Source: Chiloscyllium plagiosum (lineage: Eukaryota). From it: a stretch of 64,000 nt of DNA. The stretch is from assembly GCF_004010195.1 (NCBI RefSeq), contig NC_057752.1:7076099-7140098 (forward strand), read 5' to 3'. Positions 3,020-54,218 of this stretch are shown piece by piece (within the stretch, counting starts at the first letter, position 1; every line of letters starts with the position of its first letter). The translations under genes were made by a program, and so were the position numbers. The notes under the pieces were generated by a model that saw only the letters and a program-made list of their open reading frames with translations, was not told the origin of the DNA and did no database searches.

Positions 3020-5134
3020 TTTGATGTCCTGAAGATTCAGTTGTGAACATACTGCTGAAGTGCAAGGCCAGGATGGTCTCAGGTATGACACTCATATGCT
3101 TGATCTCAGTAGTGGTGACAGAAGGACATTTTAGAAGTGGCCTTGCTAGGCTAGAGAGAAGAAATAACAATATACATGCCAAGCATCAGCTTTTCCAGGT
3201 CATAGGAGTTTGAACAGGACAGCTTGTCAGATTTTTCCACTAGCATCAGGGATTTTCAACCAGTTAGATCATTTGAACAACAGAACTTGTGGCTGACAAA
3301 ACCAATCAGATCAGCCAATTATTTTAAACACTGTTCAGATATCGATCAGATAAATATCCTATGAATATATAAAGCACTCATCATTATCATTAACTGACCT
3401 CAAGGCTTATCGTTTTCCAAGGTTTTCAAAAGAGAAAATATCTGAAATGTACAGCAGAGTTGGAAAAACTAATGTTTGGGTGTGACCTTTTATTGAACTC
3501 TTGAGGAAATTGTGTTTCAATTATCCTCCTAAAGTGTCTTAAAGTAAACCTGATCATTAACCAGTGACCTGCTGGAAAGTGCGCATGACAACTGATACGG
3601 ACAACACTGGTGACCATCATAAAGCAATAAACACTGGCAATAGCTAGTGACTCCCACATCCTGTCAATGAAGAAAAAAAAAAATCAGAGTTTGCTAACAT
3701 TCATTATCCAAACTCATATATGCAGAATGTCCATTTGACAAAGTACCAGCATCCAGGAAACCAATGCTTTGCATGATGCAAGAAAGGTCAGTTTTTATAT
3801 ATTTTTCCTTATATTCCTTATGGAAATTTGGGTGCTATACTTCATAAATGTTTGTGTGGGCTTGAAAGCAAAAAGTTAACAATTGGTTTGTGAATAGGTG
3901 TTTGCATTAATTAGGTGTAAATAAAGGATGGCACACAATCATTAGGAATATGAAACTAAACATTTAGACAAAGGTTAAGCAGTTAGAACAAAACAGAATG
4001 ATTACATTGATATTAGAACAGTTTAACATGATTGAGTCTGTCTGTAGGAAAAGGGTAATTCAAAATGACTCAGCTCTTTGCATTGTTATGATTGTATTCC
4101 TAAATGTTGAATGTAATTGTGTTACCAAAGGTACCAAGGAACAAGTTAGACTCCAAAATCCTCTTAATCTTTGATGGCAAAACTACCTTTTGTCTTGTCA
4201 AAAACCTGATCAAAATATTAAGTAACTTAACAAAACCTTCAAATTAGTTTGTGCATTCAGTAAAAGACAGGGGAATCTTGAATGAAGCTAAACTTCCAAA
4301 GGGTTGGAAAACATGTGCTAGTCTTCTGTATAAACCACAACTTCATTAATTAAAAGTGGCTGAACAGTCTTGCATTCTTTTCATGGGCTTTAATCTTCCT
4401 GATATGCTGCTCATTTTGTGTCAGCACAGTGAAATGATTAAAGCACAAGTTTGTCCGAGACACGGTCATAAACCTGTTTAGCCTTCTGCCTAACAAATTG
4501 CATTTACAAGTGGATGGGTTAATTCTACATTGGTAAATGGGGGGGGGAACAGCACTGGCATAAAAAACAAAACTACCCACATAATTTGGTTGGTACATAG
4601 ATGGCAAGTGAAAACTGAAAACGTTCTCTGGCTTACAATTGGAACACAAGAAAGGGATGGAGGTTGCAGGGATGGCATGGAGTGGCTCTCAGTGGATTCC
4701 CTCTTCTTGATGTTCAGTCCCTCAATGAATGCCTTTGAATGAAGCCTTCCTCCAGAGCCAGCAAACAGACACTCCACTGTTTGCTTATTGTCCTCCCTGC
4801 ATGGCAAGCCTATGTCCACTGCTCAGGTAATACCAGCTGTGGTGGGACGATGCCCTTATCTGGGTAATAATTGACCACTTAAGGGTCTCAACTGGAAGGA
4901 TAGAAGGAAGGCCACACACAAGCCTTCTGCCCCAAATTTAACCAGGATAGAGGCAGGAAGGTGGTGAGGTGCCCCACCACCACCAAAACCTACCACCAGG
5001 ATTCCATCTGTAGCTACCATTGTAATGTTAAGAAATGGAGTAACCAGACCGTTATTTTAGTGATGCTGATTGAATGATAAGTGTTAAGAGTTGGCCAAGA
5101 CATCAGAAGAGTTCTCTCAGTCTTCTTCAAATCA

Positions 5135-46069: not shown

Positions 46070-48300
46070 TGGACCAACTCTTTCTCTGGTTACCCTCTTG
46101 CTTCTTATATATGAATAAAAGGCCTTGGGAATTCTCCTTAATTCTGCTCACTAAAGTTATTTCATGATCCCTTTTAGCCCGCTTGATTCTTCATTTAAGA
46201 TTGGTCCTACTCCCGTGATATTTCTCCAAGGCCCGTTCTGTTTTTAGCTGCCTGGACCTTATGTACGCTTCCATTTCCTCTTGGCTAGTCGCACGATTTC
46301 TCCTGTCATTCACGGTTCATGAATCTTGCCTTTCCTATCCCTTATTTTCAAAGGGACATGCCTACCCTGCACTATCTTCAACCTATCTATGAAAGCCTCC
46401 CACATATCAAATGTGGACTTCCTTTCAAATAGTTGCCCCAAATCCACATTTCCCAGCTACTGCCGAATTTTGATATAATTGATCTTGGCCCAGTTTAGTA
46501 CTCTTCCCTTAGGACCATTCTCACCTTTGTCTACAAGTATTTTAAAACTTACAGAATTGTGGTCACTATTCCCAAAGAAATCCCCCAGTGCAACTTCTAC
46601 CAACTGGGCTGGCTCATTCCCCAACACCAGGTCCAATATGGCCCCTTCCCTAGTTGGACTATTGACATACTGCTCTAGAAACCTTTCCTAGATGCTCCTT
46701 ACAAATTCTGCCCCATCCAGACCTCTGACACTAAGTGTATCCCAGTCAATGTTGGGAAAATTAAAACCTCCCATCACTACCGCCCTGTTGCCTCTACATC
46801 TTTCCATAATCTGTTTACCTATTTGTTCTTCTACCTCACACTCACTTATTTGTTCTTCTACCTCACACTCACTGTTGGGAGGCTTGTAGTACAGCCCCAA
46901 CAATGTAACTGAACCCTTCTTTTTTCTCAACTCTATCCATAATGCCTCACTGCTCAAGCCCTTCAGAGTATCCTCCTTTAGCACAGCCGTGATATCATCC
47001 CTGACCAGCAATGCAACTCCTCCCCACCTTTTACTTCCCTCCTTGTCCTGCTTGAGGCATCCATATCCTGGAACATTTAGTTGCCAATCATGCCCTTCCT
47101 TCAACCAAGTGTCTGTGATGGCAATAATGTCATTCTCCCAGGCACCAATCCAAGCCCTAAGTTCATCTGCCTTACCCACTATACTCCTTGCATTAAAATA
47201 TATGCACTTCAGACCACCAGTTCCTTTGTGTTCATCTGCTCTCTGCCTACTCTTCCCCTTGGTAATGCTAACTTCATGAGCCTTACAGTCTCTAGTTTCC
47301 ACCTCACTGTCTACTAGTCTTCTCTTCTGGTTCCCAGCCCCTTGCTACATTAGTTTAAACTCTCCCCAACAGCAGTGGCAAAAACTCCTCCAAGGACATT
47401 AGTTCCAGTCTAGTTCAGGAGTAGACCATCCGATTTGTAATAGCCCCACCTTCCCCAGAACCGGTCCCAATGTCCCACAAATCTGAACCCCTCCCACCTA
47501 CACCATCCCTCAAGCCACGTGTTCATCCTGCCTAATCTTTCATTTCTACCCTGGCTAACACGTGGCACTGGTAGTAATCCTGAGATCATTATCTTTGAGG
47601 TCCTCCTCTTTAAATTCTCTCCTAGCTCCCTGAATTCTGCTTTCAGGACCTCATCTCATTTTTTACTTATATCATTGGTCCCTATATGCACCACAACAAC
47701 TGGTTGTTCACCACCACCGCCCCTCCAAAACGGTATACCTGTTTTGGAGGGAGATGACCGCAGGGGACACCTGCACTGCCTTCCTACTCTTTCTCTGCCT
47801 TTTGGTCACCCATTCACTGTCCCCCTCAGCAATTCTAATCTGCGGTGTAACCAGTGCACTAAACGTGCTATCTATGAGCTCCTCAGCATCACGGATGCTC
47901 CACAGTGAGTCCATCCGCAGCTCCAGAGCCGTCATGCGGTCAAACAAGAGCTTCAGCTGGACACATTTCTTGCAAGTGTAAGAGCCAGGGACGTCAGCCA
48001 CGTCCCTGAGCTCCCACATCAGGCAAGAGGCACATGCCGCAGGTCTGAGGTCCCCTGCCATTGTAAGCATTAGCTTTAACTCAACTAACTAAAACCAAAC
48101 AATGCACTTAAATATATGAGAAAAGAAAAAAACCTTACCTTACACAGTCCTTTTCTTCTGGTTAGGTTGGGGGAAGGGAGATACTACATGTGTAGTATCT
48201 CGGGTTTAGCCACTGCCCAAGTACATACTAAGTCCTTAGCTTCCCGGCAACCTCCTGGTCTCCAACGTCACCTCAGCTCTGTCTCCCGCTGCTCCCGGAT
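46070..48300 (-). mobile_element. CR1 LINE 5' portion (ORF1 zinc finger/coiled coil + AP endonuclease)
   Basis: CASCLMWELRD...YTCKKCVQLKLL (ORF1); CIYFNARSIVGKADEL...IIAITDTWL...GGGVALLV-like...FNFPNIDW (APE). Confidence 0.9.
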
Positions 48301-48669
48301 GATAATCATGCTTGATTATTTCCAAATGACCCTCCAGGTTCACATACAATGAAAAGGCAAGCAGAACAGTTAGATCAGGCTATGAATTCATTGACACAGA
48401 AATGGCTCAAATATAGACTGATGCTCACTGAGCTATTTCAATACTAAGTAGTCAAGTTAAGTAACAAATGTAATTTTTGAGTTGGGTCACAGATTAGATA
48501 AGTAAAATTATAGGTAGTGGAATGTCCCTTTCAAGTTAAATAACAGCTCTTTTGGACACTGAAAGCAACACTGGTCAACTGAACAGCATGCTGGGAATTG
48601 GATCAGGCCAGACAGACAGATATGCAAACTGTTCAGCAGGCCTGTCAGCAATATGGAAAGAAATCAGAG

Positions 48670-49052
48670 CTGCATCAAGCTGAGCGATGACCCTCAGTAC
48701 ACAAACACCAACTGTCACTATGTACAGAGGTTCCACCTTTTTCCAGTGTTATGGAGGATGGGTCTGGCCTCAGCACTGTGGAACATTCCAAGTAGTTGGA
48801 CTGTCTCATATCACAGTCCTTTGTGGAGAAATTTGTAAAGGAAAACACCTTTGACCACAAGCCCACCAGAAAGTGGTCAGGACGCACTATCCTCGAGACC
48901 CTCCGGGAAAAGGAAGCAGTTGAGTTTGTCGGGTGGTTCGCTGAAGTAAGACTGTCAAAGTCATTTGGCAGAGTGCCTCATCACCAGAACTTTCTAACAA
49001 GCACCAAGATGTAGCTTGGCTGGTGGTGAAAAGGGCACTAACTGTGAGATCC
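48670..49052 (+). mobile_element. Tx1/L1-like LINE ORF2, left part (interrupted by the R2-type insertion)
   Basis: Ends ...KHQDVAWLVVKRALTVRS, which precedes the CCHC knuckle found after 53578. Confidence 0.75.
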
Positions 49053-49153
49053 TTAGCTTTAACTCAATTAACTTATTTGGTTGGTTGGTCTCCCAACGGT
49101 GCCTGTGTAGTCACCTTTGCAATCGTTTCTATGTATCTTATCAGTTGCAAAGT

Positions 49154-49392
49154 TGGTCGAACCTCCACGTGGTTCCCCCTGGAAACGACCTGTGAGAGGA
49201 AGCTCAATAACAGAGGAGTGGTTTTAACTTGTTTAAGAGGTTATATTGCCATGGATTTATCATTGGTTTTATCACTGATTTTATCATTGGTTTTACCTTT
49301 GGTTTTATCCAGTGCTGTATAGCCACTGACAGTTTTAACATTCTCTTTCTGTTGCATAAGCATTACTCTATTCAGGTCGGCTAATACGACCA
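49154..49392 (+). ncRNA. HDV-like self-cleaving ribozyme core (R2 5' UTR)
   Basis: P2 tggtcg(49154-59)/cgacca(49387-92); P3 acc/ggt with L3 tccacgt; P1 3' strand tccccct; P1.1 gg; P4 cgacctg(49186-92)/caggtcg(49373-79); J4/2 gctaata. Confidence 0.85.
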
Positions 49393-49446
49393 GAGAAAAG
49401 ATATGAGGCAGCTGGTGACCTATCGGTCAATGTTAGAAACCTATTT

Positions 49447-52400
49447 TTGGCAGCGGCGATTATGTTGAATTCCAAAATTTCTGATTGGGTGGGAAACCAG
49501 GAAAATAACTGCCCCGCAAGGTTGTTATTGGCGACACCGTGTGCTAAATGTGTTAGCCAAACAAGGACTAGACTATCCATTTCTATGCAAACTGAAGAGA
49601 CCATAATAGTCACTTCGGCACGGCTGCCCTCTGGCAGGCACGAGGAAGCTGGTAGTAAAGTCCAGAGGACTCAGGATCAAGTTCAAATTGAAGGATTCAT
49701 TGAGAAGACCCCTCTAGAATAATCTTGTTCTTTTAATAGCCGGACAATTTTTAGTTCAAATTTTAAAGGGCCCTTTGATTTTAGTCAAATTGGAGAACCA
49801 GAGAGCAATAAAGAGAAAAGTGAGAGTAGGATTATTCATCCTGTTGTTAATGAGAAAGATAAAATAGAAATAATAATAGAATATCCATTAGATAATTTTA
49901 TACGTAAATTTTGTAATAACATTTATAATACGACGGGAATGTTTAGAAAACATTTAAAATTGTGTAAAGGAATTAAAGCTGTGAGAGTTAAATGTAGTAA
50001 ATGCGGCTGGGAGGGTAGTTACCACTCAATCGTGTGTCACTACCCTAAATGTAATAGTAATATAAAAGAGAGGGAAGAAGGTAAATCAGTCCAATGTGAA
50101 ATTTGCCCGATTAGATTTACAACAGCTATAGGTTTAGGACAGCACGAGAGGCACGTGCACCCTAATTTGAGAAATGCTAAAAGAAATAAAGAAAAAAAAG
50201 GTAATTTGGAAAAAGTAGAGAAAGGTAAAAGAGGAGTGTGGTCCAACTCCAAAATAAAAATGTTACAACAATTAGAACAGGAATTTATAGGTTGTAAAAA
50301 TATTAATAAACTTATCGCTGAAAAATTGAAAACTAAGACGTCAAAACAAATTTCCAATAAAAGAAGATTGTTAGTTAAACATAATAAGATTAGCGATAAA
50401 GTTGAGGGCACAAGTCAGGAAGTAGTTCCCATTAATGATAATAGAAGTGAAGAGAATAGTGATCTAGATTTAGATACTCCAATAGAGGAGATAGTAATAG
50501 ATGAGTGTAACCATCAAGGAAATAATAATATTAATGGGAATGGAGAAACTAAAGATGGATCATTAATAGAATTAGTAGACATGATGAAGGACAAAATAAG
50601 GAAAAGCAAATGTATAATAAATGACTATGACAACATTATGGATATGATAATTGGTAAATTAGGGACCAAGGATAAGAGCAATAGGTCAAAGAAATTGAAA
50701 TATAAAAAGGGATTAATTACTAAGCAGAAGGATAGTAGACAAGAAGGTAAGACGAGGGTAAATAATGCTAAAAGAAGATATAGTAGGGAAAAAGGAAAGT
50801 TTAAAGAAACACAGGTTTTATATAAGAATAAAAGACAATATTTAGCTAGAACTATGATGGGAGCTCCAGCTAAATGCGAATGTCCGCTTAGCAAGGAGGA
50901 ATTGGAGGATTATTTTAAAAATAGATTATCTAATCCTAATGATAAAAGTAATTTGAGAGGTTTTGTCAAATATAAAGGTCAAATTGAGGGATCAATGTGT
51001 GACATGCTGACCGGCCCTATAACGGTAGAGGACGTCAATCAGGCCATTAAGGCGATGGACTTTAAAACTGTGGCGGGGCCGGATCAGATGACGCTTAAAG
51101 AAGTGATTAGAATATTTAATAAAGATAATACGATAATCCTCAGAATTTATACCATTTGGTTGAAAACAGGCAGTATCCCTGATATAGTAAAAATAAATAG
51201 AGCAGTATTAATCCCCAAAGTTAGTGATGAGGTTGGGTTAAAGGATTGGAGACCCATCACAATAGGTCCAATTTTGCTTAGGCTTTTAACGAAAATTATA
51301 GCTAATAGGTTAAGTAAAGTTATAAATTTAAATAAACGGCAAAAAGGTTTTATGGCAGGAGTAGCAGGTTGTGAAGAGAACATTAACATTTTGGAGAATA
51401 TCATTAATGGAGCTAAGAAAAAGAAAATCGACACAAATTGATAATAAATGCCCTGAAGAGAACTCAACTCCCTCCAGTTTTTATTAAATTAATTATGAGC
51501 TTATACAATAATAATTTTACTAGGATCGAAGGTTTTAATTGTAAAGCAAATAAGATCAAAATTTTAAGAGGGGTTAAACAAGTACTATTGAAGAAACGAA
51601 AAAAGGAATATTTTTGGGTCAAGATAAAGAGAGTTATCATTGTGTAACCTTAGCGTTTGCCGATGATATAGCTTTGATCAGCCAATCCTATGAAGGAATG
51701 GCATACAATTTAAAACTGATAGAAAAACTTTGTAATAATACTGGGATAGAGGTTAATGTAAGAAAAACAAAAGGATTCTACTTTGCTTATAAAAATAAAA
51801 TTTATAATGATAGGGCAAATTGGAAATTTAATGAGGGAAATATACAGTTTATAGATCCAGGAAGCACCGATAAATACCTTGGTACAAAAATTGATCCATG
51901 GATTGGGGTAAGCCAATTGAACTGGGAAGACCAATTAGGTATTTGGATAGATAATCTTAAAGGATCTCTTTTAAAACCTGTACAGAAATTGGAACTCTTT
52001 AAAGTGTATTTTATCCCTAGACGTTATTACTATTTAATTTTATCGGAAGTATCATTAAACTATCTTAATAAACTAGATAATATAATTAAAAGTGCAGTAA
52101 AAGAAATATTACATCTCCCACAATCCATCACAGATGGGTTTTTATATACTAAGACCCGTGATGGTGGCCTTGCGTTGAATAAACTGTCTACATTTATTCC
52201 AATTACTATTTTAAGGAAATATGAAATGCTATACAAATCCGAGGATGAAATTTTACATGCCTCATTTTCATTCGAGGGTGTTAGTATCGATACAAAAATG
52301 CAATAACTTAGTAAATTGAAAGTTTTAGAGAAGATTTAGAATCCAAATATAAATTGACAATTGGAAGAAATGGATATCACTCATGAGGAGAATTATGGTA

Positions 52401-53170
52401 TAGAGGAATTTAGTAATAAGAACGATACCAACTGGAGGTCTATAGAACTTCAGAAATGGATGGCCTTGCCCTGTCAAGGGGCGGGCATCCATTACTTCAA
52501 GAACGATAATTTCTCCAATAATTGGTTGACAAAAATTCAATATATGAAGATGTCCAAAGTAATAAATTCAATTTTATTATGAACGAACTTATATCCTACA
52601 AGGGCGTCTCTAGCTTATGGAAGGTCATTTAACATCAAGAATTGTCGGCGATGCAATGATAACTCAGAAACGATTGCGCATATTTCAGGATGGTGTCCCT
52701 ATGCAAAACATATGAGGATTAAGAGACACAATAGAATAATGGAAGAACTAATAAAGTTTATCAAGATAAAAGGATGGATAACATACGTGGAGCCACGCAT
52801 AAAAGATAACACTGGGAAATTATGGATACCAGATTTTTGGATACCAGATTTAATTTTTAAGAAGGAAAATCATGTTATCGTGGTAGACGTAACGATTAGA
52901 ATGGACATGCAAATTAACTCACTGGAACAGGCTTGGGAAGAAAAGAAAGAAAAATATAAACATCTAGAAAAGGAAATAATGGTCCTTACAAAAGGAACAA
53001 GAATATCCTTTTATGGATTTGTGATGGGATCCCGAGGAAAATGGTTTGAAAAGAACAATTAACTAATGAAAGACCTCGGGATTGAGAAATTTAAAACTTT
53101 TGTTCAAAATATCACACATCTTGTGCTATCTTTGACTCTCGAGCTTTTAAGGATTTTTATGGACTCATAG
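49447..53170 (+). pseudogene. Disrupted R2 polyprotein ORF
   Basis: Collinear fragments 49447-49722, 49939-51441, 51438-51647, 51614-52306, 52361-52582, 52712-53062; final ...RIFMDS* at 53170; stops, frameshifts and two RT deletions. Confidence 0.88.
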
Positions 53171-53577
53171 GATTCTCCATTTGACAGAATTTAATAATTT
53201 TTAATTTTAGATTATTTTAAATAAGGTTTTAGGTTAATTTTAAACTAGTATTAATTTTAAATTAGTATTTTATGATTTTAATATTTTATTAGTAAAAGTA
53301 AATTATTTTAAGTCATTGATTATGGGTGGTGGGTAATATTGGTGTAATATAATTAAAGTGCACGCAACACATAAGAAATGATGAGCGGTAATATAATCGA
53401 ACGGTTGAAAAACCCAGCTCATTCCTCGCTTTATTGATGATTCTGGTTTACAACATTTTATCCTGTTCCTTTTAAGATCATCTGGCTGTGGTTAGCTAGA
53501 TAGGGGTATACTTTTGTTGACGAGCGATGATAAAACTCGAAAAGGACATGATCCATTCATATGGTGAGTGCATGAAA

Positions 53578-54218
53578 TATGCCCAGCATATGCTGCCCTC
53601 AAACCAGTTGCGGGGTGTGTGGGGGGGTAGAGACTGTCACACATCTCCTGTTAGAATGTGCCTTTGCAAAGGAAGTCTAGAGAAAAATGCAGTGGTTTTT
53701 GTCAAGGTTCATCTGGAGCATGATGAGTCGTGATGCAGGACTCCATGCTCTGCAGTCTGTTCCCCAGGATGCACCCCGAGACAAACATCAATTGCACCTG
53801 GAAGACCATCAAATCAGTGAAAGACACTCTTTGGTCTGCCCAAAGCTTGTTGGTCTTCCAGTGCAAAGAGCTGACCTCAACTGAGTGTTACAGACTGGCA
53901 CATTCCAAGGTCCAGGACCACGTGCTGAGGGATGTACAAAAGCTTGGGGAAGCTGCTGCTGACGCGCAGTGGAGAAAGACCACCACCTAAGGTCTTTCTG
54001 CCAAAGTTAAATGGGGTCCGTTCAACTGTAAAGTGCTCGCGTTGTCTCAAATGTAAATGTAAATAGTGTCCTACATAGGTAAGAAATGTCTTTGACCGTT
54101 GCAACCGTCAGATCCAACTTATGTTTTTCTTGACGTGCAAAGACTATATGGAATTGCTGTAGTAGCTGTGTGTGTACAAAATTTTTTTAATTAATAAAGT
54201 CTATTTTTGCAATTAAAA
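53578..54218 (+). mobile_element. Tx1/L1-like LINE ORF2 C-terminus and 3' UTR, right part
   Basis: CPQTSCG...ETVTHLLLEC knuckle; WKTIKSVKDTLWSAQSLLVFQCKELTSTECYRLAHSKVQD (same family as 2566-3019); aataaa at 54193. Confidence 0.85.

What the first reader, a model, noticed from the sequence alone, without database searches (positions are those of the whole stretch)
49154..49392. HDV-like ribozyme with a ~190-nt P4 extension in the R2 5' UTR
Seen: P2 tggtcg/cgacca, P3 acc/ggt around L3 tccacgt, P1.1 gg, P4 base cgacctg/caggtcg, and J4/2 g-C-t-a-a-t-a with candidate catalytic C at 49381. The core acctccacgtggt resembles the vertebrate R2 ribozymes I recall. P4 encloses about 180 nt, including a 12-nt-period tandem (g(g/a)ttttatca(t/c)t, ~49253-49310). 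All these pairings are intact although the ORF is heavily decayed.
Basis: partly seen in the sequence, partly recalled or inferred. Interest (0 to 1): 0.85.

Follow-up and report, generated by a model that had tools for sequence, protein, structure and literature searches.

The report
Relic of an R2 self-cleaving ribozyme
This stretch is the dead, front-truncated copy of the hepatitis-delta-type self-cutting RNA that heads an R2 jumping gene, a known kind of element, here in an unusually large form whose sister copies still carry the missing strand.

Summary
A descriptor for this P1-less motif hits only this locus in the window, against 1 hit in 60 shuffled windows.

The element is a true R2: its protein matches the zebra finch R2 protein (R2Tg), and sister copies sit at the canonical 28S site.

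The window copy lies outside rDNA. It has lost its first ~20 nt and has at least 4 premature stops and 2 frameshifts. In 26 of 41 other copies the element starts with a run of at least 5 G followed by A (consensus GGGGGGA). This is the missing P1 strand, complementary to 49174-49180.

Across 42 copies, 92.9% of the core and J1/2 pairs form, against 34-45% in slid controls. Compensatory changes occur in P2, P4 and a J1/2 hairpin. The 194-nt P4 is a conserved rod (z -7.4).

The family therefore encodes a ~330-nt HDV-like ribozyme that most likely cuts at the element's own 5' end. This is a new member of a known kind. Cleavage itself was not tested.

One further point: the first 28-29 nt resemble the 28S leader (-28 to -1). 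This fits the published model of a cleavage-site shift.

The parts
49055..49074 (+). 20-nt junction filler (agctttaactcaattaactt) standing where sister copies have the element's first ~20 nt, GGGGGGATGTGACTACAGTT. That lost segment held the P1 5' strand and the 5' arm of the first J1/2 hairpin.
   Evidence: Flank comparison with L004 and L015, which sit at the same site of the same host repeat. The family homology boundary falls at about 49075-49079.
49075..49153 (+). Remnant of J1/2. It holds the orphan 3' arm of hairpin H1 (tgtagtcac, 49106-49114), a small hairpin gttgg/ccaac (about 49083-49096), and the intact hairpin H2 (ctttgcaa 49115-49122 with ttgcaaag 49145-49152).
   Evidence: H2 has a compensatory pair (UA 26, CG 10, UG 6) and H1 is 88.2% paired across the copies.
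49154..49159 (+). P2 5' strand (tggtcg)
   Evidence: Pairs with 49387-49392. The outermost pair is AU in 24 copies, UA in 17 and GU in 1.
49161..49173 (+). P3 (acc/ggt) around L3 (tccacgt). The L3 CC at 49165-66 pairs with G49181-82 to form P1.1.
   Evidence: P3 is 95.8% paired and P1.1 92.3% paired. The 11-mer CCTCCACGTGG occurs in 15 of 42 copies and CCTCCTCGTGG in 5 of 42.
49174..49180 (+). P1 3' strand (tccccct). Its partner GGGGGGA is missing in this copy.
49181..49185 (+). P1.1 guanines (49181-82) and J1/4 (aaa)
   Evidence: GG in 35 of 42 copies. J1/4 is TAA in 23 and AAA in 17.
49186..49379 (+). P4: a 194-nt rod-like imperfect hairpin (base cgacctg/caggtcg)
   Evidence: MFE -66.2 kcal/mol, z -7.36, 0 of 200 shuffles as stable. 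84.9% of cells paired against 32.6-52.2% in slid controls, and 21 of 68 pairs changed on both sides.
49252..49309 (+). 12-nt tandem repeat (TGGTTTTATCAT, 4.8 copies) forming the distal part of the P4 rod. The copy number differs among copies.
   Evidence: Deletions of repeat units are seen in L010, L015-L017, L022, L024 and L065.
49380..49386 (+). J4/2 (gCtaata), with the candidate catalytic C at 49381
   Evidence: C in 39 of 42 copies and T in 3. The next base is free (T 26, G 11, A 4, C 1), followed by AAUA, which is nearly invariant.
49387..49392 (+). P2 3' strand (cgacca)
49360..53062 (+). Decayed R2 open reading frame (zinc fingers, RT, CCHC and endonuclease region). The frame is open from 49360, so it overlaps the 3' side of the ribozyme.
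   Evidence: ORF pieces, 4 premature stops, 2 frame changes; R2Tg and other R2 proteins; RVT_1 and zf-RVT, both below Pfam's cut-off.
53063..53577 (+). R2 3' UTR. The element ends at about 53577 (...gcatgaaa).
   Evidence: homology of 29 other copies ends here; the host repeat resumes with tatgc.

Best explanation
Window 49154-49392 is the 3' four-fifths of the HDV-like self-cleaving ribozyme that forms the 5' end of an R2 non-LTR retrotransposon family of this genome.

In complete copies the RNA has this layout:
- It begins with GGGGGGA (P1).
- A ~95-nt J1/2 follows, holding two conserved hairpins.
- Then come P2, P3/L3, the P1 partner UCCCCCU and the two P1.1 guanines.
- Then a ~187-nt rod-like P4.
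- Then J4/2 with the catalytic C, and finally the P2 partner.
- The total is about 330 nt.

Inferred mechanism, taken from the R2 and HDV literature:
- The element is transcribed as part of a longer transcript (28S rRNA for rDNA copies).
- The double pseudoknot folds, and the J4/2 cytosine promotes cleavage just 5' of G1.
- The R2 RNA is released with the ribozyme at its 5' end and no upstream rRNA ('position 0', as in Drosophila).
- The J1/2 hairpins probably act as a clamp that brings P1 and P2 together.

The window copy is a dead relic. It was inserted outside rDNA into a 28S-like site of an abundant repeat, it has lost its first ~20 nt (and so P1), and its ORF is broken.

What is shown: the helices, their conservation and covariation, element starts at or within the G run in most copies, and R2 identity. 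What is inferred: catalysis, the exact cut site and the roles of J1/2 and P4.
For: 1. All core helices are present in the window and are rare by chance: 1 locus in the window against 1 hit in 60 shuffles.
2. The missing P1 strand is found at the first bases of the other copies. The G run before ATGTGAC is 6 long in 18 of 41 and 5 or more in 26 of 41. P1 has 6 or more of 7 pairs in 27 of 42. The first pair is G-U in 19, G-C in 7 and A-U in 3.
3. In the 42-copy alignment, 92.9% of 2166 cells pair, against 33.7-45.2% when partners are slid by 1-3 columns. Both-sided changes: P2 AU24/UA17, P4 base GC23/AU13, J1/2 hairpin UA26/CG10, P4 extension AU20/GC15 and GC17/AU14.
4. The J4/2 C is kept in 39 of 42, GG of P1.1 in 35 of 42 and the L3 CC in 39-40 of 42.
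5. 11 of 42 copies keep every core helix plus the C.
6. The P4 rod: z -7.36, 84.9% paired, 21 pairs with both-sided change.
7. R2 identity.
8. The core 11-mer CCTCCTCGTGG (5 of 42 copies) is the motif that Kojima et al. 2016 quote for R2Dm and R2-1_TG (PMC5035012, passages).
9. None of the non-rDNA copies whose flanks I read carries a 28S leader before the G run. This fits cleavage at G1 and not at -28.
10. 5' junctions in 28S are variable (L075 ...CTCTT|T|GGGGGG; L021 deletion plus atct; L076 deletion; L090 and L092 ...TTAAG|TG(TG)ACTACAG). Eickbush et al. 2013 tie this variability to position-0 cleavage (PMC3774820, abstract and sections 3, 14, 17).
Against: - No cleavage assay was done, and no usable RNA data were found.
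- Rfam's HDV-like models give no hit, either in the window or on a complete copy at E up to 10. This is expected with about 280 nt of insertions, but it means no independent model recognises the fold.
- The compensatory changes are few clade-level events inherited by many copies. Two of the five shuffle measures were not exceptional: pairs with both-sided change were reached in 132 of 500 shuffles and further pair types in 112 of 500.
- P1, P3 and P1.1 show no both-sided change, only conservation.
- The P4 structure tested was derived from the window's own fold, which favours it on percent paired.
- Only 11 of 42 copies are fully intact, and no two copies are more than 97.5% alike in the 5' UTR. 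There is therefore no sign of very recent activity in the assembled copies.
- Two rDNA-resident copies (L090, L092) lack the G run altogether.
Confidence: 0.85

Rival explanations
1. The ribozyme is real but cuts at -28 in 28S rRNA, as in most R2 lineages including birds. It would use the 28S GGCGGGA as P1, and the element's own GGGGGGA would be only part of J1/2.
For: The 28S leader GGCGGGA would pair with UCCCCCU at 6 of 7 positions. Two rDNA copies lack the G run and join 28S ...TTAAG directly to TG(TG)ACTACAG, while keeping UCCCCCU. According to Eickbush et al. 2013, -28 is the commonest R2 cleavage site.
Against: - That pairing has a C-C mismatch at position 3, whereas the element's own strand pairs 7 of 7.
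- Eickbush et al. report that one P1 mismatch abolished or nearly abolished cleavage in horseshoe crab.
- None of the non-rDNA copies whose flanks I read starts with a 28S leader. 26 of 41 start with a run of at least 5 G.
- 5' junctions in 28S are variable, not uniform.
Confidence: 0.07
2. The region is a conserved structured 5' leader, for example for protein binding or translation, that merely resembles the HDV fold and does not cleave.
For: Catalysis is untested. Rfam HDV-like models do not match. The long P4 rod and the J1/2 hairpins are conserved beyond what a minimal ribozyme needs.
Against: - Every defining core element of the fold is present in the right order with the right spacings.
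- The J4/2 C, the L3 CC and G, and a G-U closing pair are conserved.
- Element copies begin at the predicted cut site.
- Ribozymes of this fold are active in R2 of many animals (PMC3774820 abstract; PMC11331408 passages).
Confidence: 0.06
3. The motif in the window is a chance arrangement of short complementary words.
For: Short helices with G-U allowed are common. One shuffle in 60 gave a hit.
Against: - The expected number is about 0.02 per window.
- The same arrangement is kept in dozens of copies, with compensatory changes.
- It lies at the head of an R2 element.
- The predicted P1 partner turns up at the element's first bases.
Confidence: 0.01

Closest known systems
Drosophila R2 HDV-like ribozyme (Eickbush & Eickbush 2010; described in PMC3774820)
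   Same: It sits at the 5' end of R2. It is wholly encoded by the element, with cleavage at the element boundary (position 0), and the 5' junctions are variable. The conserved core CCUCCUCGUGG lies more than 100 nt from the 5' end because J1/2 is long (R2Dm nt 135-145 according to PMC5035012; here P3 starts about 110 nt from G1).
   Different: The host is a different animal lineage, with a protein closest to zebra finch R2 among solved structures. P4 here is a ~187-nt rod carrying a 12-nt tandem repeat. I could not check the Drosophila P4 and J1/2 sizes, because the 2010 paper is not held and figures are not available.
Avian R2 ribozymes (zebra finch, white-throated sparrow)
   Same: The element family is the same and the protein is the closest among solved structures. 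The fold is the same HDV-like one, and some copies here share the core 11-mer.
   Different: The avian ribozymes are reported or predicted to cut at -28 in 28S and to use 28S sequence as P1 (PMC3774820 section 15; PMC11331408 passages). In zebra finch R2-1_TG the core lies at nt 37-47. Here P1 is the element's own sequence.
Sea squirt R2 B and C elements and the Figure 8 model of Eickbush, Burke & Eickbush 2013
   Same: In the model, a duplicated 28S leader at the R2 5' end becomes the new P1 after a compensatory change in P1', which moves cleavage to position 0. Here the first 28-29 nt resemble 28S -28..-1, and P1/P1' differ from the -28 pairing by one compensated position.
   Different: The leader here is already diverged (about 21 of 30 aligned columns identical). 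In the window's own subfamily it is hardly recognisable.
Large HDV-like ribozymes with a J1/2 peripheral helix (drz-Agam-2; Webb et al. 2016, PMC4908430)
   Same: A helix in J1/2 next to P1 and P2 is proposed to pinch the two helices together and speed cleavage. This family has two conserved hairpins filling J1/2.
   Different: The retrotransposon family is different, and the effect on rate is untested here.
HDV genomic and CPEB3 ribozymes
   Same: The same nested double pseudoknot order (P1-J1/2-P2-P3-L3-P3'-P1'-P1.1-P4-J4/2-P2'), with a G-U at the cut site and a catalytic C followed by purines.
   Different: Those are about 70-85 nt long (recalled). This one is about 330 nt, and no Rfam model matches it.

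Membership tests
HDV-like self-cleaving ribozyme | P1 of 6-7 bp whose first base (a purine, usually G in a G-U pair) marks the cut site | tested here: met
   Met in the family: 6 or more of 7 pairs in 27 of 42 copies, and the first pair is G-U 19, G-C 7, A-U 3. Not met in the window copy (2 of 7), which lacks the 5' strand.
HDV-like self-cleaving ribozyme | P2 of at least 5 bp closing the outer pseudoknot | tested here: met
   6 bp, 96.4% of cells paired, outermost pair AU24/UA17. The window has 6 of 6.
HDV-like self-cleaving ribozyme | A 3-bp P3 with a ~7-nt L3, and a two-pair P1.1 between L3 and the bases just after P1' | tested here: met
   P3 95.8% paired, P1.1 92.3% paired. L3 CC is kept in 39-40 of 42 and the L3 G in 39 of 42. 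There is no both-sided change, so this rests on conservation only.
HDV-like self-cleaving ribozyme | P4 helix followed by J4/2 with the catalytic cytosine | tested here: met
   P4 base 93.5% paired with GC23/AU13. C in 39 of 42 copies, and C49381 in the window.
HDV-like self-cleaving ribozyme | Recognition by curated covariance models (Rfam HDV-like families) | tested here: not met
   No hit at gathering threshold in the window. No hit at E up to 10 for 48500-50000 or for the complete copy L004 1430-1820. About 280 nt of J1/2 and P4 insertions make this test weak.
HDV-like self-cleaving ribozyme | Mg2+-dependent self-cleavage giving a 5'-OH product, lost when the J4/2 C is changed | not testable with these tools
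   This needs an in vitro transcription and cleavage assay.
R2 non-LTR retrotransposon | Insertion at the conserved 28S site (...TTAAGG|TAGCCAAATGCC...) | tested here: met
   Met for sister copies: L040 3' junction; L021, L075 and L076 5' flanks; L090 and L092; uninterrupted 28S in L091. The window copy itself lies in a different repeat.
R2 non-LTR retrotransposon | A single ORF with N-terminal zinc fingers/Myb, RT, and a C-terminal CCHC plus restriction-like endonuclease | tested here: met
   PDB sequence search: R2Tg 3e-64, other R2 proteins 1e-63 and 6e-55, Bombyx R2 9e-15. Pfam RVT_1 and zf-RVT appear only below the curated cut-off. The endonuclease part was read by eye and not scored.
R2 ribozymes of the position-0 class | P1 5' strand encoded by the element itself, with variable 5' junctions | tested here: met
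   GGGGGGA occupies the first bases of the element. The 5 junctions in 28S that I read are all different.

The most novel reading that the evidence does not exclude
The first 28-29 nt of this R2 lineage (GGGGGGAUGUGACUACAGUGUUUUUAAGG) are an internalised, diverged copy of the 28 nt of 28S rRNA just upstream of the R2 site (GGCGGGAGUAACUAUGACUCUCUUAAGG). The C-to-G change in P1 is matched by a G-to-C change in P1'.

On this reading the family is a vertebrate example, still legible, of the cleavage-site shift from -28 to position 0 that Eickbush et al. proposed. The resulting self-contained ~330-nt ribozyme may be what let the element leave dozens of copies outside rDNA, including at a 28S-like site in an abundant repeat. 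The conserved P4 rod with its 12-nt repeats may carry a second function.
Probability: 0.4. Interest if true: 0.55.

Novelty: new member of a known kind. Interest (0 to 1): 0.35.

Why it matters
HDV-like ribozymes at the head of R2 are well established, so the find does not change the picture. It adds three things:
- a well-supported, unusually large example (about 330 nt, with a 95-nt J1/2 and a 187-nt P4) from a lineage whose protein is closest to zebra finch R2 among solved structures;
- evidence that cutting at the element's own end is not peculiar to flies;
- a possible natural record of how the cut site moves.

R2 systems are being developed for gene insertion, and the 5' ribozyme module affects efficiency and junction type (PMC11331408). 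Natural variants of this module therefore have some practical interest. The window copy itself is a dead relic.

Tried and rejected
- **Rfam scans**: no HDV-like family matched. The only sub-threshold matches were SNORD74, mir-153, snoR143 and astro_FSE, all far below their gathering scores, and I take them as chance.
- **Covariance model of my own:** not built. The ~330-nt model exceeds what the calibration limit allows.
- **RNA evidence:** no RNA holder was listed. I laid three contig runs of guessed kind and one raw single-cell polyA run on L021:980-1880. The contigs look like genomic copies (their loose ends match known flanks), and the raw run gave 0 reads from about 2% of the run. This is no test of expression or of the cut site.
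- **First leader-similarity test**: it used the 25 nt left at L075's own junction, which lacks AAGG. It gave 201 of 20,000 shuffles, and without the first 7 nt 4,356 of 20,000, which is not significant. The later test with the full 28-nt leader from an uninterrupted 28S is the one reported, but the non-P1 signal leans on the terminal UUAAGG.
- **RNAalifold pairing of GACUA with UGGUC in J1/2**: set aside in favour of the 9-bp GUGACUACA/UGUAGUCAC hairpin. Neither has real covariation.
- **Segmental duplication as the reason that the window, L004 and L015 share flanks:** rejected as the sole cause. The flanks are much more diverged than the R2 parts, and the 5' junctions differ.
- **Earlier scan notes**: nothing on this genome or sequence.
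- **Papers not held:** Ruminski 2011 and Eickbush & Eickbush 2010.
- **Protein searches:** I did not run the large protein homology searches, because R2 identity was already settled.

Full report
**What is in the window**

- P2: tggtcg 49154-59 with cgacca 49387-92.
- P3: acc/ggt around L3 tccacgt (49161-73).
- A 7-nt stretch tccccct (49174-80) in the place of a P1 3' strand.
- gg (49181-82) for P1.1.
- P4 base: cgacctg 49186-92 with caggtcg 49373-79, enclosing 180 nt.
- J4/2: gCtaata, with the C at 49381.

Tandem Repeats Finder gives a 12-nt period with 4.8 copies at 49252-49309.

I wrote a descriptor for this P1-less arrangement. On both strands of the window it found only this locus, and it found 1 hit in 60 dinucleotide-preserving shuffles of the window. 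The motif alone is therefore unlikely to be chance.

Rfam finds nothing here, at gathering scores or at E up to 10.

**The element is an R2**

Downstream lies a broken ORF (49360-53062, + strand) with 4 premature stops and 2 frame changes. Its first large piece matches solved R2 proteins:
- zebra finch R2Tg, E 3e-64;
- two other R2 proteins, 1e-63 and 6e-55;
- Bombyx R2, 9e-15.

Pfam sees only sub-threshold RVT_1 and zf-RVT.

The genome that holds the window (3.56 Gb) has at least 40 scored matches to the 5' region (85 candidates, 40 scored) and as many to the 3' end.

Some sister copies sit in 28S rDNA at the canonical R2 site:
- L040 has the 3' junction ...GAATA|TAGCCAAATGCCTCG.
- L021 is flanked by 28S (Rfam LSU, 1089.9 bits).
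- L075 and L076 have 28S up to ...CTCTT before the element.
- An uninterrupted 28S reads ...CTCTTAAGG|TAGCC (L091).

**The missing P1 strand**

Homology of the family to the window stops at about 49075-79. In most other copies the element runs about 20 nt further 5' and begins GGGGGGATGTGACTACAG.

GGGGGGA is the exact partner of tccccct: 7 of 7 pairs, with the first G opposite the last T as a G-U pair, as at HDV-type cut sites.

Among the 41 other aligned copies, the G run before ATGTGAC has these lengths:

| G-run length | Copies |
|---|---|
| 8 | 1 |
| 7 | 4 |
| 6 | 18 |
| 5 | 3 |
| 4 | 5 |
| 3 | 4 |
| 2 | 1 |
| 1 | 3 |
| 0 | 2 |

None of the non-rDNA copies whose flanks I read has 28S sequence before the run.

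The window copy has an unrelated 20 nt (49055-74) in place of these bases. It pairs at only 2 of 7 P1 positions.

**Conservation and covariation**

I aligned 42 copies (A1). Partial copies L006, L012, L080, L081, L083, L085 and L086 were left out.

For a 53-pair structure (P1, P1.1, P2, P3, P4 base and two P4 extensions, two J1/2 hairpins), 92.9% of 2166 cells form standard pairs. When the 3' partners are slid by 1-3 columns the figure is 33.7-45.2%.

Both-sided changes:

| Helix (alignment columns) | Pair types and counts |
|---|---|
| P2 outermost pair (128-384) | AU 24, UA 17 |
| P4 base (175-369) | GC 23, AU 13 |
| J1/2 hairpin (89-120) | UA 26, CG 10, UG 6 |
| P4 extension (196-344) | AU 20, GC 15 |
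| P4 extension (199-341) | GC 17, AU 14 |

RNAalifold, run blind, recovered P2, the P4 base, the P4 extensions and the second J1/2 hairpin.

Limits of this evidence:
- The changes are few clade-level events.
- Two of the five shuffle measures were unexceptional (132 and 112 of 500 shuffles reached them).
- P1, P3 and P1.1 are only conserved, not covarying.

Core residues:
- The J4/2 C is kept in 39 of 42 copies.
- The base after it is free (T 26, G 11, A 4, C 1).
- P1.1 GG is kept in 35 of 42.
- L3 CC is kept in 39-40 of 42.

Eleven of 42 copies keep every core helix and the C. Twenty-three, including the window, keep all but P1.

**Peripheral domains**

The ribozyme is large:

| Part | Median (nt) | Range (nt) |
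|---|---|---|
| G1 to end of P2 | 332 | 297-347 |
| J1/2 | 95 | 78-107 |
| P4 | 187 | 151-195 |

The window's P4 (49186-49379) folds as one long imperfect hairpin of -66.2 kcal/mol, z -7.36, with 0 of 200 shuffles as stable.

That fold, mapped on the alignment, is 84.9% paired against 32.6-52.2% in slid controls. It has 21 of 68 pairs changed on both sides. This structure came from one of the aligned sequences, which favours it.

The 12-nt repeats form the distal arms of the rod and vary in number among copies.

J1/2 holds two hairpins: GUGACUACA/UGUAGUCAC directly after P1, and CUUUGCAA/UUGCAAAG directly before P2.

The literature already covers such features:
- Long structured J1/2 regions and very variable P4 are described for R2 ribozymes. 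P1 and P1' can be 23 to over 700 nt apart, and P4 ranges from none to extensive stems (PMC3774820, sections 16 and 17).
- A J1/2 helix can speed cleavage by pinching P1 and P2 together (PMC4908430, abstract and passages).

The size is therefore notable but not new in kind.

**Where it cuts**

P1 is made from the element's own first bases, and 26 of 41 copies start with a run of at least 5 G. The five 28S junctions I read all differ:
- L075: ...CTCTT|T|GGGGGG.
- L021: a deletion plus atct.
- L076: a deletion.
- L090 and L092...TTAAG|TG(TG)ACTACAG without the G run.

This is the pattern that Eickbush et al. 2013 tie to cleavage at the element boundary. It contrasts with the uniform junctions of -28 cutters such as zebra finch (PMC3774820, abstract and sections 14, 15, 17).

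The 28S GGCGGGA at -28 would pair with UCCCCCU with one C-C mismatch. Upstream cleavage is therefore a minor rival, and possibly a fallback for the two rDNA copies that lack the G run.

**A possible record of cut-site migration**

In the rDNA-associated subfamilies, the first 28-29 nt of the element resemble the 28S leader from -28 to -1, ending in the same UUAAGG.

Global alignment scores were reached by few of 20,000 shuffles:

| Copy | Whole stretch | Without the first 7 nt |
|---|---|---|
| L075 | 0 of 20,000 | p 0.00075 |
| L065, L018, L027 | 1 of 20,000 (p 5e-05) | p about 0.004-0.005 |
| L002 (window's subfamily) | p 0.029 | p 0.51 |
| L004 (window's subfamily) | p 0.006 | p 0.20 |

An earlier test with the truncated 25-nt leader was much weaker: 201 of 20,000, and 4,356 of 20,000 without P1.

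The segment was chosen after I noticed the likeness, and the copies are not independent. I hold this reading at about 0.4.

It matches the Figure 8 model of Eickbush et al. 2013 (section 17 part 2): a duplicated 28S leader, a substitution in the internal P1, a compensating substitution in P1', and a shift of cleavage to position 0.

**The window copy's setting**

The element (49055 to about 53577) is inserted between ...CTGTGAGATCCTT and TATGC... of an abundant repeat (2,869 first-look candidates). Two uninterrupted copies of that repeat show the empty site.

L004 and L015 are inserted at the same point of other copies of this repeat, with different 5' junctions and with flanks more diverged than the R2 parts. 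By eye, the site resembles the 28S target: TAACTGTGAGATCCTT|TA.GC against TAACTATGACTCTCTTAAGG|TAGC. I did not test this statistically.

**Verdict**

The finding is real and correctly interpreted. It is a decayed, P1-less genomic copy of an R2 5' HDV-like ribozyme. The family-level evidence (the P1 strand at the element's start, covariation, conserved catalytic positions) is strong, but no cleavage was tested.

It is a new member of a known kind. Two points add modest interest: the ribozyme's size, and a position-0 architecture in an R2 whose protein is closest to the zebra finch's among solved structures. The possible internalised 28S leader adds a little more.

On prior publication: my searches and the passages I read of the 2026 survey of animal R2 (PMC13188248; 'ribozyme' occurs twice there) show no description of this ribozyme. 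I do not know the organism's name, so I cannot exclude that it has been described. I did not open any supplements.

Noticed in passing
window 48650-49054 and 53578-53990; L004, L015/L043; L088, L089: Three R2 copies (the window, L004, L015) are inserted at the same nucleotide of different copies of an abundant repeat (2,869 first-look candidates). By eye, the sequence around the insertion point resembles the 28S R2 target: TAACTGTGAGATCCTT|TATGC against TAACTATGACTCTCTTAAGG|TAGCC. This looks like repeated off-target use of a pseudo-target.
   Followed up: partly
L030, L069, L072, L077, L079 (upstream of the G run); L070, L074, L085: There are head-to-tail R2-R2 junctions on small unplaced contigs. 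In one form, the 3' end of one R2 is followed by a 15-17-nt partial copy of the 5' end (GATGTGACTACAGTGAT) and then a full element. In the other form it is joined directly to GATGTGAC without the G run. Template jumping of the R2 enzyme between RNAs would give this pattern.
   Followed up: no
L092 (G000:C89898:2270-2425) and L090: These are rDNA-resident copies whose 5' junction is 28S ...CTCTTAAG joined to TG(TG)ACTACAG, so they lack the P1 G run. L092 also shows 28S running through the R2 site, then a short R2 5' fragment, then a repeated 28S upstream segment before the element.
   Followed up: partly
L034, L039, L045-L047, L049-L051, L054 (3' junctions): About 9 of 29 copies outside the window, not in rDNA, have TAG or TAGC right after the R2 3' end. 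These are the first bases of 28S downstream of the R2 site. They could be carried over from rDNA co-transcripts or reflect target preference.
   Followed up: no
window 49416-49429: A small hairpin (tgacc tatc ggtca) about 25 nt downstream of the ribozyme is conserved in most copies (alignment). The weak SNORD74 match at 49419-49493 (23.3 bits against a gathering score of 41) overlaps it and is probably chance.
   Followed up: no
window about 49083-49096 (alignment A1 columns 50-67): The small hairpin inside J1/2 is kept in two different registers in different subfamilies: GTTGG-TCTC-CCAAC against GGTC-TCC-GACC. A single consensus structure cannot show this.
   Followed up: no
window 46457-48088, minus strand: ORF pieces of another LINE are present: an endonuclease-like N-terminal part (218 aa ORF at 46688-47344) and further pieces. 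It is unrelated to the R2.
   Followed up: no
window 49360-49722: The R2 reading frame is open, stop to stop, from 49360, inside the 3' side of P4. It is separated from the main ORF piece by one stop at 49720-22. The coding region may therefore begin within or right after the ribozyme.
   Followed up: no
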